Virus record (IMG/VR): IMGVR_UViG_3300021400_000130
Span: 1 to 64,000 of that record
Direction: 5' to 3' (one strand)
DNA: 64,000 bases
DNA from: a virus
Taxonomy: Duplodnaviria > Caudoviricetes
The notes beneath the pieces are model-generated. The model did not search any database and was not told the DNA's origin. It was given only the letters and a program-made list of their open reading frames with translations. The translations under genes were made by a program, and so were the position numbers. Numbering within the stretch: position 1 is the stretch's first letter; each line of letters starts with the position of its first letter. Shown piece after piece: positions 3,607 to 15,282 of this stretch.

Positions 3607-3969
3607 ATGTACAAACACACAGAAAAAGAAACCCCCGAGGTTATTGGGCACTATCGAATCTATAGTGATCCCGAGGCAAAGATCATCGTTGCAGTTAGCC
3701 GTTATGCTGGTAAAACTGTACGAGGAGTTGCAAAGTGTCATCCCAATGATGAATTTGACATCGAGTTTGGAACAAAACTTGCGATTGCAAGATGTGAATT
3801 TAAAGTAGCGAACAAACGTGCGGATAGAGCATACAAGAAAGTCAATGAAGCTCAAATGGATCGTCTCAAAGCAGAAATTCATCTGCGTGATATGCTTGAT
3901 TATCTGGACGGTGCCAATAAGGATCTTAAGATCGCCAGTGAGCTTCTTGAGGAACTTGAACAGAAGTAA
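3607..3969 (+). CDS. Hypothetical phage protein
   Basis: ORF with SD GAGGAAGG; GVAKCHPNDEFDIEFG motif common in phage proteins. Confidence 0.75.
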   Translation: MYKHTEKETPEVIGHYRIYSDPEAKIIVAVSRYAGKTVRGVAKCHPNDEFDIEFGTKLAIARCEFKVANKRADRAYKKVNEAQMDRLKAEIHLRDMLDYLDGANKDLKIASELLEELEQK

Positions 3970-4182: not shown

Positions 4183-4245
4183 AAAGACAATTACAGCAAC
4201 AAGAAAATTTTCTTTTATTAGGGTTAAAAAGAATAGTTGTCTTGT
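4183..4245 (+). ncRNA. YACAGCAA-stem RNA, copy 1 (candidate Ro60/DUF2828-associated Y-like RNA)
   Basis: AAGACAA(4184-4190)-TTACAGCAA...TTGTCTT(4237-4243)G terminal stem. Confidence 0.65.
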
Positions 4246-6402: not shown

Positions 6403-6477
6403 GGCCCCGTAGCTCAGAGGAAGAGCACGCGCCTGTTAAGCGCGATGTCGAGATATCGTAATTCTCCGGAGCCTCCA
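6403..6477 (+). tRNA. tRNA-Asn(GTT), atypical T-loop
   Basis: CGCGC-CTGTTAA-GCGCG, T-loop ATCGTAA, CCA. Confidence 0.85.
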
Positions 6478-7264
6478 GTCCCTTGGGAGTAGGGAGGGTT
6501 GATAAACTCCATCGTAACGCGAAATGCCAGAATGTCGCGGCTAATGTCGGGAGCAAAACCGATGAGGAAGATTTCCGCCTCGCAGGAGTGCAAAAGGTGA
6601 CGGAGACACGACACGCAACGAAATAGTGGTCGTCGTTTGTTAAATGGAAAACGTTAATATTCCATTACTGAGTTACCAGTCCAGGTAAGGTCAACTCAAC
6701 CAACTGGTTATTTTAAGTATCCATATTAGACGGTCTAATGTAATTGTGCGCGTTCGGTTCGATTCCAGCGGTGTCCGAGTTCGACTCTTGGGCGCGCCTG
6801 GTGGCAATATCAATTACTACTTAAAAATGTTTATCGCCAATCCTTCCGATAACTGCGACAAGGAAGGTGAAGAAGAATCGCAGTTCTTCTAATAAGTGAG
6901 CAACGACTTACGGAGAGCGCCGGACACCTCGCCCGTTGAGGAGGGAAATATTGGGTGAATGTCACTATTCCCAATTACCAGAACATAAGGGCATATGGAA
7001 TGGTATATGTGACGGTATTAGGCTTGAAATCCTAACGAGACATCGTGAAGAGTTCCGTTCTTGTGGTTGATGCTTTACCACTTGTCGAATAGTAGTAGCA
7101 TACAAAGAGGAATGCTGTTAGACGTGAGGGGATGCCCGAAGTAGACGAAACAGTATGTGTACAGCCTCCGAGAAGTTGGGCACGAGACTTCTAATATAAT
7201 AAACTATCTTATATACCATGTTGTATATAAGACCAAAGTGAAAGTATAACTTCCCTTTCTTTAT

Positions 7265-11895: not shown

Positions 11896-12216
11896 ATGAA
11901 AATGTATGACAAGAAGTCCACTAATGTAGTTGAAGCTGTCGATTTCTATTCTGACGGTACTGTTCTTGTTTATGACCCAAATCTTGGTGCTAAACAGAAT
12001 GGTAACGGTTGGGTTACTGTAAAGCGTAATCGTCTTATCCCTGCTGATTATGCTGAAATGTTTATTAGTGGTATGAGTAAGACTGAAAAGAATAAAATTA
12101 AACAACGGCTTACTCTTGTCAGTGCTTCGTGGGAAACCACAGACGGTAAAGTATTTGATCATCTTGACAACGCTGTTGAGCACGAAAAGGAATTGATAGA
12201 ATCTGAAAACAGTTGA
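11896..12216 (+). CDS. Hypothetical protein
   Basis: 106 aa ORF with AAGG SD. Confidence 0.7.
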   Translation: MKMYDKKSTNVVEAVDFYSDGTVLVYDPNLGAKQNGNGWVTVKRNRLIPADYAEMFISGMSKTEKNKIKQRLTLVSASWETTDGKVFDHLDNAVEHEKELIESENS

Positions 12217-12226
12217 TTTCTAATAC

Positions 12227-12317
12227 AAAGACGCATACAGCAATATATTTAATGGTTAAAATTTTAGACTGTCAATCTGAAGTGATACGGTTCAAATCCG
12301 TAAAATACGCGTCTTGT
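12227..12317 (+). ncRNA. YACAGCAA-stem RNA, copy 2, containing D, anticodon (GTC, Asp) and T arms
   Basis: AAGACGC/GCGTCTT terminal stem, ATACAGCAA, ATTT-AATGGTTA-AAAT, TTAGA-CTGTCAA-TCTGA, TACGG-TTCAAAT-CCGTA; no acceptor stem and no CCA. Confidence 0.8.
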
Positions 12318-12375
12318 TAATAATAGTTGATTTTAACATATTAGTTATATATAATATTCTATGTTAAATAAATAT

Positions 12376-12465
12376 GCGTCCTTAACCCGAGCGGCCTTGG
12401 GACCTGTCTTGAAAACAGTGTGTACCTGATGAGGGTATGGGGATCGACACCTCAGGGGCGCGCCA
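12376..12465 (+). tRNA. tRNA-Ser(TGA), atypical D/T loops
   Basis: GCGTCCT/GGGGCGC-G-CCA, CTGT-CTTGAAA-ACAG, variable arm, T-loop ATCGACA. Confidence 0.8.
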
Positions 12466-12478
12466 TTTAATAGATAAT

Positions 12479-12521
12479 AAAACACTCACAGCATATATAA
12501 AAGGACATAAAAAGTGTTTTG
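12479..12521 (+). promoter_or_regulatory. YACAGCA-stem element, copy 3, in the 5' leader of the Ro60-like gene
   Basis: AAAACACT-CACAGCA...AGTGTTTT-G, ending at SD GAAAGGA, 15 nt before ATG 12536. Confidence 0.65.
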
Positions 12522-12535
12522 AAAGGAAAGATAAT

Positions 12536-14059
12536 ATGAACTTTATTCATGAGATGAAAAAAACCAATGATATGAACACTCTTGTTTATACTGAAAATGG
12601 AGCTCTTGGGCATAAGAGTACGGGTAAGTATCTCCTTGACCTCAACTTCTCGGTCGCCTCTTTGCGTAGTATGAAGCCCGCAGAGATTTTTGAGAAGTTT
12701 GAAAATGCTTTCATCGAAGATCCTCGTTTGGCAATGCGTTGGCTCTTCTTCGCTCGCGATGTTAGAGGCGGTCTTGGTGAGCGTAGACTCTTCCGCATCT
12801 GCATGATGAACCTTGCTTCTAGTAATCCGGGCATGGTCAAAGCTCTTGTTACTATGATCCCTGAATACGGACGTTGGGATGATCTGTGGAGTCTTCTCGG
12901 AATTAACAAGGAAGTTGACGAAGAAATCTTTTCAGTTACTAACGATCAGCTCGTTTGTGATCTGAAAAGCTGTGACGTAGGAGAGCCTATCTCTCTTCTT
13001 GCAAAATGGCTTCCGTCCATCAATACTTCATCTAAGGAAACTCGTAACTTAGCTCACAAGTTTGTTAAGAAGTTTGATCTGACGGAGAGGGCATACCGTA
13101 TTATGCTGAGTAAGCTTCGTAAGTATCTTAAAGTTACGGAAACTCAGATGTCTAGCGGCAACTGGGACAAGATTAAGTACGAGTCTGTTCCTTCTCGTGC
13201 CAATCTTCTTTACAAAGATGCTTTCATGCGTCATGATTCAGTTCGTAGAACTAAGTATCTAGAAGATCTGAAAAATGGTACTACCAAGATTAATGCTTCT
13301 ACTCTGTTTCCTCATGACATTGTTCATATGTGTCGTAAGGATGATGAGTCAGTGGAGCAGCTGTGGAAGAATCTTCCTGATTTTGTAAAAGGAGATTCCA
13401 ATACGATTGTTGTTGCCGATGGTAGCGGCTCAATGAATTGCCCTGTCGGTTCTTCTAACATTACAGCTTGGGAAGTTGCTCATGCTCTTGCTATTTACTT
13501 TGCAGAGCGTTGCTCCGGACCTTATAAAGATAAGTATATCACCTTCTCCGCGAGACCTCAGTTTGTTAATCTTAACGGAGGCACTCTATACAATAGTCTT
13601 TATATTGCTCGTAGACATAGTGAGTGCAGTAACACTAACATTGAAGCTGTATTTGATCTCATCTTGAATACAGCTATCAGAACTAATGCAAAACAGAGCG
13701 ATATTCCTAACAATATTTTAATTGTTAGCGATATGGAGTTTGATGATGCTACTTATGGTTATTCTTGGGGACCTGATAAGTTCGACAGACCTTCGGAGAC
13801 TCTCTTTGAAACCATTCGTCGTAGGTGGGAGAACGCTGGGTACAAACTTCCTCGGCTTGTTTTCTGGAATGTAAATTCTCGTACGGGCTCTATTCCTGTC
13901 ACTGAAAATGAGCTTGGCGTTGCTCTTGTTAGTGGATTCTCTCCTGCAGTTTGCAAGATTGTCCTTAGCGGTAAGCTTGATCCTTACGGTGCTCTTGTTG
14001 ATGCCCTTATGGATATGAGATATGATCCTATTGAGGAAACAATCGAGAGATTTATCTGA
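12536..14059 (+). CDS. DUF2828-type Ro60/TROVE-like protein with C-terminal vWA domain
   Basis: TENGA..STG..LDL.F N-terminus, RDVRGGLGER, YGRWDDL, AKWLPS, vWA MIDAS DGSGSM, SDMEFD, FWNV, SGFSP. True start is 12536 after the SD; the track start lies inside tRNA-Ser. Confidence 0.85.
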   Translation: MNFIHEMKKTNDMNTLVYTENGALGHKSTGKYLLDLNFSVASLRSMKPAEIFEKFENAFIEDPRLAMRWLFFARDVRGGLGERRLFRICMMNLASSNPGMVKALVTMIPEYGRWDDLWSLLGINKEVDEEIFSVTNDQLVCDLKSCDVGEPISLLAKWLPSINTSSKETRNLAHKFVKKFDLTERAYRIMLSKLRKYLKVTETQMSSGNWDKIKYESVPSRANLLYKDAFMRHDSVRRTKYLEDLKNGTTKINASTLFPHDIVHMCRKDDESVEQLWKNLPDFVKGDSNTIVVADGSGSMNCPVGSSNITAWEVAHALAIYFAERCSGPYKDKYITFSARPQFVNLNGGTLYNSLYIARRHSECSNTNIEAVFDLILNTAIRTNAKQSDIPNNILIVSDMEFDDATYGYSWGPDKFDRPSETLFETIRRRWENAGYKLPRLVFWNVNSRTGSIPVTENELGVALVSGFSPAVCKIVLSGKLDPYGALVDALMDMRYDPIEETIERFI

Positions 14060-14174: not shown

Positions 14175-14241
14175 AAAGACGGTTACAGCAAACTTAACTG
14201 GAATAGACTTTTAATCTATAATACCAAACCTCCCGTCTTGT
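14175..14241 (+). ncRNA. YACAGCAA-stem RNA, copy 4, with a perfect tRNA-Lys(TTT) anticodon stem-loop
   Basis: AAGACGG/CCGTCTT stem, TTACAGCAA, ATAGA-CTTTTAA-TCTAT (14203-14219). Confidence 0.78.
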
Positions 14242-14294: not shown

Positions 14295-14446
14295 GCCTTG
14301 GCAGCTCAGATGGTTTGAGCTCCCGACTTCAAGAGATAGCTTAACAGGAAAGCAGCGTAGCTTTAGAAACGAAGATGTAAGTGCAATTCTTACTCTCTTG
14401 GCCAATAATCGGGTGATCGTTGGTTCGAGTCCAACCCAAGGCACCA
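14295..14446 (+). tRNA. Interrupted tRNA, probably Ile(TAT), with a 75-nt insert in the anticodon
   Basis: GCCTTGG/CCAAGGC-A-CCA, normal D and T arms, CCCGA-CTT[insert 14330-14404]ATAA-TCGGG; 77 nt without the insert. Confidence 0.8.
14330..14404 (+). ncRNA. Nested tRNA-like RNA (CCA-ended, loop CTTTAGA) inside the outer anticodon
   Basis: CAAGAGA/TCTCTTG-G-CCA, TA-GCTT-AACAGGA-AAGC, T-arm GTAAG-TGCAATT-CTTAC, imperfect anticodon arm. Confidence 0.75.
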
Positions 14447-14968: not shown

Positions 14969-15038
14969 AAAGGCTCATACAGCAATTCTTTTTTATAATG
15001 CTGACTGTTCATCTGCTAACTATAAAAACGAGCCTTGT
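14969..15038 (+). ncRNA. YACAGCAA-stem RNA, copy 5, with an Asn(GTT)-like anticodon arm
   Basis: AAGGCTC/GAGCCTT stem, ATACAGCAA, GCTGA-CTGTTCA-TCTGC. Confidence 0.75.
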
Positions 15039-15052
15039 ACTTATGTTATTGT

Positions 15053-15125
15053 AAGACCCATACAGCAACTTATCTATTATATAATTATTGTAAATTATTG
15101 AATTAGATCGGAAATCGGGTCTTGT
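15053..15125 (+). ncRNA. YACAGCAA-stem RNA, copy 6, with a possible Tyr(GTA)-like loop
   Basis: AAGACCC/GGGTCTT stem, ATACAGCAA, TAATTA-TTGTAAA-TTATTG. Confidence 0.72.
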
Positions 15126-15139
15126 TTTTTAAAGTTAAT

Positions 15140-15282
15140 AAAGACGCACACTGCAAATATTTTTATAATATTTGAAAGTTTTTGTACACCCTAAACTCTA
15201 TACATCGGAAATAGTTAGATGGTAAGTAAGTTGAGTGTTCCGTTGTGGAGTATAAATTAAAGAACTAAGTCCTGCGTCTTGT
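15140..15282 (+). ncRNA. YACAGCAA-stem RNA, copy 7 (long variant, CACTGCAA)
   Basis: AAGACGCA/TGCGTCTT-G stem followed by CACTGCAA. Confidence 0.65.

What the first reader, a model, noticed from the sequence alone, without database searches (positions are those of the whole stretch)
12479..12538. Minimal copy of the RNA handle abuts the RBS of the Ro60-like gene: probable translational autoregulation
Seen: AAAACACT-CACAGCA-19 nt-AGTGTTTT ends at the first base of SD GAAAGGA, 15 nt before ATG 12536. It is the shortest copy and carries no cargo. Known: RNA-binding proteins often repress their own mRNA through a mimic of their target. Inference: free protein binds its own leader, matching protein level to ncRNA level. 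This position is the best in-window evidence linking motif and protein.
Basis: partly seen in the sequence, partly recalled or inferred. Interest (0 to 1): 0.7.

Follow-up and report, generated by a model that had tools for sequence, protein, structure and literature searches.

The report
Partner-RNA handle in Ro60-like gene leader
A phage gene for a Ro60-shaped RNA-binding protein carries, right against its ribosome-binding site, a stripped-down copy of the small-RNA "handle" found in RNAs encoded around this gene. Many related phages have a handle in the same place, so the protein may throttle its own synthesis, but nobody has tested this.

Summary
At 12479-12520 a 7-8 bp stem (AAAACAC(T)/(A)GTGTTTT) closes a 3-nt spacer, CAGCA and a 20-nt unstructured loop. 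G12521 is both the handle's terminal G and the first base of the SD GAAAGGA, 15 nt before ATG 12536.

A covariance model built only from non-leader copies finds the element (27.5 bits, E about 0.001-0.003). It is one of only six hits in the complete 153.6-kb phage genome.

The downstream protein (DUF2828+DUF7788) is predicted to fold like Ro60.

A strict handle ends within 60 nt of the start codon in 48 of 82 distinct phage leaders and 16 of 71 bacterial-MAG leaders; shuffles give fewer than 1. Leader copies are shorter (loop of 20 nt or less: 8/32 versus 1/99) and have weaker stems than free copies.

Autoregulation remains an inference:
- No binding or repression is shown.
- Only 5 of 32 leaders abut the SD.
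- Leader copies are often the last unit of an upstream array, which matches the known Y RNA-rsr gene order.

My estimate is about 0.4 for negative translational feedback.

This scan has already noted the DUF2828/ACAGCA-handle pair on other DNA. What this report adds is the comparative evidence on the leader copy.

The parts
12327..12355 (+). Promoter-like site TTGATT-17-TATAAT. It is the only strong + strand promoter match between 12150 and the gene.
   Evidence: 10 of 12 matches. The same hexamers precede other RNA genes in the window (by eye).
12376..12465 (+). tRNA-Ser(UGA)-like cloverleaf with a long variable arm, ending in CCA. It is co-transcribed upstream of the leader.
   Evidence: One search gives a cloverleaf fold. 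Neither ARAGORN nor Rfam calls it. It is conserved in L009, L011 and L015.
12479..12485 (+). 5' strand of the handle stem (AAAACAC). T12486 can add an eighth pair with A12513.
12486..12493 (+). 3-nt spacer (TCA) plus the conserved core CAGCA.
   Evidence: In this copy the base after the core is T, whereas the family has A in 81-94% of copies.
12494..12513 (+). 20-nt A-rich loop with no cargo hairpin. It ends in the A-run typical of leader copies.
12514..12520 (+). 3' strand of the handle stem (GTGTTTT).
12521..12527 (+). Shine-Dalgarno GAAAGGA. G12521 is also the handle's near-invariant terminal G.
   Evidence: GAAAGGA directly follows the stem in L009, L011, L012, L013, L015, L017, L177 and L006.
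12536..14059 (+). Gene for the 507-aa DUF2828+DUF7788 protein: a predicted Ro60-like ring plus a vWA domain with the MIDAS motif DGSGSM.
4184..4243 (+). Free handle copy (AAGACAA/TTGTCTT).
12228..12315 (+). Free handle copy whose cargo is a tRNA-like body (Rfam tRNA model positions 10-63).
14176..14239 (+). Free handle copy whose cargo is a Lys-anticodon-arm-like hairpin.
14970..15036 (+). Free handle copy.
15053..15123 (+). Free handle copy. It gives a weak sub-threshold Rfam match to Dictyostelium Class I RNA.
15141..15280 (+). Variant copy (core CTGCA, 118-nt cargo). The pattern search finds it but the model does not.
   Evidence: absent.

Best explanation
The element is a real, cargo-less member of the ACAGCA-handle RNA family, built into the 5' untranslated leader of the Ro60-like gene.

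The likely transcript starts at the promoter at 12327-12355. It runs through a tRNA-Ser-like gene, the handle and the SD into the open reading frame.

My best reading is that the leader handle is a weak, effector-less binding site for the Ro60-like protein. When the protein outnumbers its higher-affinity free partner RNAs, it clamps the marginally stable leader stem. Because the stem ends at the first base of the SD, this would block 30S binding. That gives negative feedback matching protein level to the RNA pool.

Shown here: family membership, position in the transcript, conservation of a handle in homologous leaders, shorter loops and weaker stems in leader copies, and the predicted Ro60-like fold.

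Inferred: that this protein binds the handle at all, that binding occludes the ribosome, and the sign of the effect.
For: Family membership:
- Model R1, built from 56 non-leader copies only, finds the element at 27.5 bits, E 0.0013.
- It is one of six hits in the complete 153.6-kb genome. All six lie in the tRNA island on the gene strand. The other five precede no called gene, so this is the only mRNA leader with a handle.

Conservation in homologous leaders:
- A strict handle ends within 60 nt of the start codon in 48 of 82 phage leaders (shuffles 0.68) and in 16 of 71 MAG leaders (shuffles 0.4).
- By my count from the table, R1 hits at E 0.1 or better end just before the gene in about 40 of 86 loci. 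All 195 hits are on the gene strand.
- In the window's clade (62-98% protein identity) the loops diverge, while the stem, CAGCA and the abutting GAAAGGA stay.
- The focal stem differs from the AAGACGC/GCGTCTT stem of two free window copies by two changes that are compensated on the other strand.

The handle belongs to the gene's transcript:
- In L012 a promoter TTGATT-17-TATAAT sits directly before the handle, so the handle is at the 5' end of the mRNA.
- In the window there is no promoter or terminator between the tRNA-like gene and the open reading frame.

Leader copies are specialised:
- Loop of 20 nt or less: 8/32 leader versus 1/99 other copies (Fisher 4.5e-5).
- Median loop 33.5 versus 45 nt (p 1.5e-7).
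- Stem energy -7.3 versus -8.3 kcal/mol (p 0.02). The focal stem, at -4.6, is weaker than 97% of free copies.
- A T-run after the handle is rarer in leader copies: 6% versus 21%.

The protein is plausibly RNA-binding: pLDDT 91, and the 12 best Foldseek matches are all Ro60/TROVE structures.

From established knowledge, not tested here: repression of a protein's own mRNA through a weaker mimic of its RNA target is common in bacteria and phages (ribosomal-protein operons, the thrS operator, T4 RegA and gp32).
Against: - No binding or repression data exist. The protein-handle link is by co-occurrence only.
- SD abutment is not general. The SD core starts within 4 nt of the stem in only 5 of 32 distinct leaders. 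Others cluster at 15, 24-29 and 40-42 nt, often with a second hairpin in between.
- On a protein tree the abutting state is scattered: at least 10 changes for 13 rows. This count is inflated by strict detection, and at least one row (L123) probably has a mis-assigned start.
- Leader copies are enriched where an upstream array exists (26/37 versus 10/45), as expected if they are simply the last array unit.
- Many bacterial leaders carry a full cargo (T-arm) RNA rather than a minimal one.
- The focal copy has T rather than the usual A after CAGCA.
- The bare hairpin is not more stable than shuffles.
- I found no precedent for Ro60 autoregulation.
Confidence: 0.4

Rival explanations
1. It is an ordinary operon layout. 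The leader copy is just the last partner-RNA gene of an array co-transcribed with the protein gene, as Y RNAs are with rsr. It is cut out of the precursor and has no regulatory role. In this clade it is a decayed, cargo-less remnant.
For: - Y RNAs lie upstream of Ro60 genes on the same strand and are processed from shared precursors in D. radiodurans, M. smegmatis and Thermus phage phiLo (PMC4201824; PMC12135203).
- Leader copies go with upstream arrays (26/37 versus 10/45).
- The distance to the SD varies from 0 to 42 nt.
- Many MAG leaders carry RNAs with full cargo.
Against: - A remnant should decay. Instead the stem, CAGCA and terminal G are kept, with compensatory changes, across 62-98% protein identity while the loop drifts.
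- Minimal loops are specific to the leader position (8/32 versus 1/99) and recur in several clades.
- Ten loci have a solitary leader copy with no other strict handle in the upstream 1 kb.
- In L012 the handle stays with the gene behind its own promoter.
- Cutting after G12521 would leave an mRNA with no nucleotides 5' of the SD.
Confidence: 0.3
2. It is a positive cis element. The protein-bound or folded handle near the mRNA 5' end, exposed after the tRNA-like gene is excised, protects the message from 5'-end-dependent decay or loads newly made protein in cis. It would raise rather than lower expression.
For: - The handle lies 13 nt after the CCA of the tRNA-like gene, so tRNA 3' processing would leave it near the mRNA 5' end.
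- In L012 it starts 2-4 nt after the predicted transcription start. In L067 it directly follows a tRNA 3' end.
- From general knowledge: 5'-terminal stem-loops stabilise bacterial mRNAs.
Against: - The focal stem is among the weakest in the family (-4.6 kcal/mol). That is poor for a stand-alone stabiliser.
- Stabilisation does not need the CAGCA core or the family register.
- It does not explain why the stem ends exactly at the SD in this clade.
Confidence: 0.15
3. The handle is recognised by a factor other than the Ro60-like protein, such as a processing nuclease. The leader copy would then be a processing boundary that separates the tRNA and small-RNA precursor from the mRNA.
For: - Handles are interspersed with tRNAs and have a 7-bp closing stem plus one following G, which by eye recalls an acceptor stem with its discriminator base.
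- The protein-handle link is co-occurrence only.
Against: - Handles track DUF2828 genes in phages and bacterial MAGs, and all 195 model hits are on the gene's strand.
- Inside this genome they occur only around this gene.
- No nuclease gene co-varies with them in the data I looked at, though I did not examine this systematically.
Confidence: 0.1
4. It is a chance A/T-rich hairpin, or a weak terminator for the upstream tRNA-like gene.
For: Folding energy is not better than shuffles, and the region is A/T-rich.
Against: - The model hit at E about 0.001-0.003, with no false hits elsewhere in 153.6 kb.
- Conservation in homologous leaders against shuffles.
- No terminator-like site.
Confidence: 0.02

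Closest known systems
Autogenous translational operators that mimic the protein's RNA target (E. coli thrS operator, ribosomal-protein leaders such as S8/spc and L1/L11, T4 RegA and gp32). These examples are recalled from established knowledge.
   Same: A copy of the protein's presumed RNA target sits in its own 5' leader next to the ribosome-binding site. It is weaker (weaker stem) and simpler than the primary targets, the arrangement such feedback operators are held to need.
   Different: No binding, toeprint or reporter data exist. The protein is a Ro60-like ring, for which I found no report of autoregulation. In most relatives the site is 15-42 nt from the SD.
Ro60 (Rsr) with Y RNAs encoded upstream of the gene: D. 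radiodurans Yrn1/Yrn2, M. smegmatis YrlA/YrlB, Thermus phage phiLo Yrl1/Yrl2 (PMC4201824, PMC12135203).
   Same: - A predicted Ro60-like ring plus vWA protein.
- Partner-like RNAs closed by a 5'/3' stem with a conserved 5'-side motif and a variable, often tRNA-like module.
- The RNAs are encoded beside the gene on its strand, including directly upstream.
   Different: - The protein matches Pfam DUF2828/DUF7788, not TROVE.
- The RNA motif is CAGCA(A) rather than GNCGAA, and no Rfam Y_RNA or YrlA hit appears.
- The leader copy has no effector module and touches the SD.
Dictyostelium Class I RNAs (Rfam RF01414; PMC7919456).
   Same: Both have a short stem joining the 5' and 3' ends, a conserved motif directly after the 5' stem strand, and a variable remainder of about 60 nt. 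One free window copy gives a weak match (18.3 bits).
   Different: That match is far below the gathering score of 41.5, and the focal leader copy gives none. Class I RNAs are free-standing eukaryotic genes, reported as unique to dictyostelids, whose known direct binder is the RRM protein Rnp1A. None is described in an mRNA leader.

Membership tests
ACAGCA-handle RNAs beside DUF2828 genes (no published description found; noted repeatedly by this scan) | A 7-bp closing stem, a 3-nt spacer, then CAGCA on the 5' side | tested here: met
   AAAACAC / TCA / CAGCA ... GTGTTTT, 7 of 7 pairs.
ACAGCA-handle RNAs beside DUF2828 genes (no published description found; noted repeatedly by this scan) | G directly after the 3' strand, and A after CAGCA | tested here: inconclusive
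   The terminal G is present (12521). The base after CAGCA is T, where 81-94% of copies have A.
ACAGCA-handle RNAs beside DUF2828 genes (no published description found; noted repeatedly by this scan) | A significant score against a model built from other members | tested here: met
   R1 contains no leader copies. It scores 27.5 bits, E 0.0013 in the window and E 0.003 in the genome.
ACAGCA-handle RNAs beside DUF2828 genes (no published description found; noted repeatedly by this scan) | Lies near a DUF2828 gene, on its strand | tested here: met
   It lies 15 nt upstream of the gene on the same strand. All 195 hits in relatives are on the gene strand.
Autogenous translational operator (target mimic in the protein's own leader) | The site resembles the protein's primary RNA target | tested here: met
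   assuming the handle is the target.
Autogenous translational operator (target mimic in the protein's own leader) | The site overlaps or abuts the ribosome-binding site | tested here: met
   Met in the window and its clade: 0 nt from the SD. Across relatives only 5 of 32 leaders have the SD within 4 nt.
Autogenous translational operator (target mimic in the protein's own leader) | The protein binds the site | not testable with these tools
   No protein-RNA docking or binding assay is available here.
Autogenous translational operator (target mimic in the protein's own leader) | Protein-dependent repression of translation | not testable with these tools
   Needs reporter fusions or toeprinting.
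Ro60/TROVE protein with Y RNA | Ro60 ring plus vWA fold with a MIDAS motif | tested here: met
   Predicted model only: pLDDT 91. The 12 best Foldseek matches are Ro60 structures, TM-score up to 0.61. DGSGSM is conserved.
Ro60/TROVE protein with Y RNA | Pfam TROVE sequence signature | tested here: not met
   Only DUF2828 and DUF7788 match at E 0.01 or better. phmmer finds no solved Ro60 structure.
Ro60/TROVE protein with Y RNA | Y RNA motif GNCGAA(N)G / GGUCCGA in the stem; Rfam Y_RNA or YrlA match | tested here: not met
   There is no CGAA in 12479-12521 and no Rfam match even at E 10. The motif is as given in PMC4201824.
Intrinsic terminator | G+C-rich hairpin followed by a T-run | tested here: not met
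   No terminator-like sites in 12150-12650. The stem has only 2 G-C pairs and is followed by GAAAGG.

The most novel reading that the evidence does not exclude
A Ro60-like particle may carry a built-in homeostat. The protein would read the size of its partner-RNA pool through a deliberately weak, cargo-less decoy handle in its own mRNA leader and shut off its translation when RNAs run short. This would be the first autoregulatory circuit reported for any Ro60-type protein. It would also be direct genetic evidence that the ACAGCA handle is what the DUF2828 protein recognises.
Probability: 0.35. Interest if true: 0.7.

Novelty: new variant of a known kind. Interest (0 to 1): 0.55.

Why it matters
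The DUF2828 protein and the ACAGCA-handle RNAs look like an undescribed cousin of the Ro60/Y-RNA particle, spread through gut and rumen phages and bacterial MAGs. Their physical link is so far only guilt by association.

A handle in the protein's own leader gives a small, clean test system: one 45-nt RNA, one protein and one reporter. That system could show both that the protein recognises the handle and how its level is set.

If feedback is confirmed, it would add Ro60-type proteins to the list of RNA-binding proteins controlled by target mimicry. It would also explain why a cargo-less copy is conserved.

If it is not confirmed, the leader copy still marks the transcription unit and shows how the RNAs and the protein are co-expressed.

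Tried and rejected
- **Rfam:** searches at gathering and at E 10 found no family for the element.
- **Generic pattern:** a search for any 7-bp stem plus CAGCA was too noisy, about 12 per strand in shuffles against 22-27 real. I replaced it with the family register.
- **Relaxed leader search:** allowing one mismatch and spacers of 2-4 nt was dominated by false pairings. I discarded it for the strict version with shuffle controls.
- **Close relatives:**
  - blastn against phage records found only tRNA-Pro matches.
  - The metagenome scan found nothing closer than 58% identity.
  - Two contig look-ups returned no DNA.
  - L177 holds only 48 nt of leader.
- **Promoter inside the loop:** I considered one (TATATA at 12494). 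The scan finds no + strand promoter there.
- **SD sequestration by RNA alone:** no anti-SD is present and the alternative folds are weak.
- **Protein tree:** the tree of leader states is not informative enough to argue for or against selection for SD abutment.
- **Not run:** Complex prediction, because it takes no RNA.

Full report
**What is there.** The window is the first 64 kb of a complete 153.6-kb phage genome with direct terminal repeats. It holds an island of at least 18 tRNA genes at 4.4-15.7 kb. At 12479-12520 the sequence reads AAAACACT CACAGCA, then 19 nt, then AGTGTTTT. It is followed by GAAAGGA (12521-12527), 8 nt, and ATG 12536.

The gene 12536-14059 encodes a 507-aa protein that matches Pfam DUF2828 and DUF7788. 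Many homologues align from residue 1, so 12536 is the start, not the in-frame ATG at 12437.

**Is it a member of the handle family?** The other copies in the window share one register:
- a 7-bp stem, mostly AAGACNN/NNGTCTT;
- a 3-nt spacer;
- CAGCA(A);
- a variable cargo;
- the complementary strand;
- a G.

With that register the window has 7 copies on the + strand and none on the - strand, against 0.6 expected from shuffles. I derived this register from all seven copies, so it is not an independent test of the focal one.

The focal copy fits as AAAACAC/TCA/CAGCA/20 nt/GTGTTTT/G. Compared with AAGACGC/GCGTCTT, the stem of two free window copies, it has two changes, and each is compensated on the other strand.

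For a non-circular test I aligned 56 non-leader copies from the window and related loci (A2) and built model R1 with only the closing stem as structure:
- R1 finds the focal element at 27.5 bits, E 0.0013, as the sixth and last hit up to E 10 in the window.
- In the whole genome it is again one of exactly six hits at E 1 or better (E 0.003). All six are in the tRNA island on the gene's strand.
- The other five hits precede no called gene, so no other mRNA leader in this phage carries a handle.

As a bare hairpin the element is unimpressive: -4.8 kcal/mol, z -1.4. Its reality rests on family membership and conservation.

**The protein.** An AlphaFold2 model from a 40-sequence alignment has mean pLDDT 91. 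The 12 best Foldseek matches in the PDB are all Ro60/TROVE structures: Thermus phage phiLo at E 6.8e-9, X. laevis Ro60 at TM-score 0.61, plus human and Deinococcus Ro60. vWA domains follow below them. The MIDAS motif DGSGSM is conserved: D295, S297 and S299 are invariant. 'Ro60-like' is therefore supported by predicted fold, although the sequence is not in Pfam TROVE and phmmer finds no solved relative.

The family is large: 6884 representative clusters at E 0.001 or better. I collected loci from viral contigs, assemblies and bacterial genomes or MAGs.

Within the window's own clade:

| Locus | Protein identity | Leader layout |
|---|---|---|
| L009 | 98% | identical layout |
| L011, L015, L177 | 74-75% | AAAGCAC...GTGTTTT, then GAAAGGA; a different, longer loop |
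| L012 | 63% | TAAACAC...GTGTCTA, then GAAAGGA; one A-C mismatch |
| L013, L017 | 62% | AAACACT...AGTGTTT, one base, then GAAAGGA |

So the stem, the core and the abutting SD persist while the loop drifts.

More distant lineages also place a handle directly against the SD: L006, L080, L085, L088, L067 and L165.

Counts:
- A strict handle (7 of 7 pairs, 3-nt spacer, CAGCA) ends within 60 nt of the start codon in 48 of 82 distinct phage leaders. Shuffled leaders give a mean of 0.68 and a maximum of 2.
- The same holds in 16 of 71 bacterial-MAG leaders, against 0.4 in shuffles.
- Many of the remaining MAG leaders show ACAGCAA followed by a tRNA-like T-arm, which the strict pattern cannot catch.
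- By my count from the table, R1 independently places hits just before the gene in about 40 of 86 loci. All 195 hits at E 0.1 or better are on the gene's strand.

**Is it part of the mRNA?** In the window the only good + strand promoter match is TTGATT-17-TATAAT at 12327-12355, upstream of a tRNA-Ser(UGA)-like cloverleaf (12376-12465). There is no promoter or terminator match between it and the open reading frame. The gene is therefore probably transcribed through the tRNA-like gene and the handle.

In L012 the same type of promoter (3905-3933) has moved to just before the handle, which starts 2-4 nt after the predicted transcription start. The handle stays with the gene, not with the upstream RNA. 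In L067 the handle directly follows a tRNA 3' end.

**Are leader copies special?** I compared 32 distinct leader copies with 99 distinct other copies:

| Measure | Leader copies | Other copies | p |
|---|---|---|---|
| Loop of 20 nt or less | 8/32 | 1/99 | 4.5e-5 (Fisher) |
| Median loop | 33.5 nt | 45 nt | 1.5e-7 |
| Stem duplex energy (median) | -7.3 kcal/mol | -8.3 kcal/mol | 0.02 |

The focal stem, at -4.6 kcal/mol, is weaker than 97% of free copies. Leader copies also have a stronger A-run before the 3' strand and fewer T-runs after it, 6% against 21%. A weak, effector-less copy is what a feedback operator that must lose the competition with the true targets should look like.

**What speaks against the regulatory reading.**
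- Nothing here shows that the protein binds the handle.
- SD abutment is a minority state. The SD core starts within 4 nt of the stem in 5 of 32 distinct leaders. The rest cluster at 15, 24-29 and 40-42 nt, often with a second covarying hairpin (GGAAUnn...nnAUUC) in between.
- On a FastTree of 156 proteins the abutting state needs at least 10 changes for 13 rows. This is inflated by strict detection and by at least one doubtful start codon.
- Leader copies are commoner where an upstream array exists (26/37 against 10/45), although 10 loci have a solitary leader copy.
- Partner RNAs just upstream of Ro60 genes, processed from shared precursors, are the known layout for Y RNAs (PMC4201824; PMC12135203).
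- I found no report of Ro60 autoregulation.

**Verdict on mechanism.** I am confident (about 0.9) that this is a genuine, conserved, cargo-less family member inside the gene's 5' leader. That it acts as a negative translational operator is the best single reading, at about 0.4. The alternatives are:
- a plain co-transcribed or processed partner RNA (0.3);
- a positive 5'-end element (0.15);
- a processing signal read by another factor (0.1);
- chance (0.02).

**Comparison with the known.**
- It works like the target-mimic operators of thrS, ribosomal-protein operons and T4 RegA/gp32 (established knowledge). Membership cannot be claimed without binding and repression data.
- The protein-RNA pair resembles Ro60/Y RNA in predicted fold and RNA architecture. 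It fails the sequence-level defining features: Pfam TROVE, the GNCGAA motif, and Rfam Y_RNA/YrlA.
- The RNA architecture also recalls Dictyostelium Class I RNAs. One free copy gives a weak sub-threshold Rfam match; the leader copy gives none.

**Earlier notes of this scan.** The scan has already recorded the DUF2828/ACAGCA-handle pair on this window and on other phage and giant-virus DNA. I treated those notes as leads. What this report adds is the comparative evidence on the leader copy.

Noticed in passing
L016:1839-1871, L024, L060, L001:2912-2946, L040, L021, L033, L064, L092, L071 (between the leader handle and the SD): In many relatives a second small hairpin with covarying stem (GGAAUnn...nnAUUC, for example GAATTTA/TAAATTC, GATTTC/GAAATC, GAATAGT/ACTATTC) directly follows the handle's terminal G. 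It is followed by an A-run and the SD. It is absent from the window's clade and its function is unknown.
   Followed up: partly
window 12376-12465: A tRNA-Ser(UGA)-like cloverleaf with a long variable arm and an encoded CCA. Neither ARAGORN nor Rfam calls it, even at E 10. It is conserved upstream of the leader in L009, L011 and L015.
   Followed up: partly
window 14176-14239; alignment A2 rows L009, L011, L012, L015: The cargo of several free handle RNAs is an anticodon-arm look-alike, for example GGAAUAGACUUUUAAUCUAUAA with a Lys-like UUU loop. Others have Asn-like or Gln-like loops. Copy 12228-12315 carries D, anticodon and T arms (Rfam tRNA model positions 10-63).
   Followed up: partly
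L101, L108, L112, L132, L139, L145, L157, L158 and others (up to about 90 nt before the gene): In many Lachnospiraceae and Clostridia MAG loci the RNA just upstream of the DUF2828 gene combines ACAGCAA with a tRNA-like T-arm (GGTTCGAATCC), and the 3' end often reads GGTAAGGCT. This is a different topology from the simple clamp, and the strict pattern search misses it.
   Followed up: no
window 15054-15124: A sub-threshold Rfam match of a free handle copy to Dictyostelium Class I RNA (RF01414): 18.3 bits against a gathering score of 41.5, covering model positions 1-56 of 56.
   Followed up: partly
L161 (Treponema MAG), about 31 nt before the start codon: A minimal leader handle (16-nt loop) is followed here by GTTTTTTTATTTTT. 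In this lineage the leader handle could therefore act as a terminator or attenuator rather than as an RBS block.
   Followed up: no
window 6403-6790 and 14295-14446: tRNA-Asn is followed by a long structured non-coding stretch.
   Followed up: no
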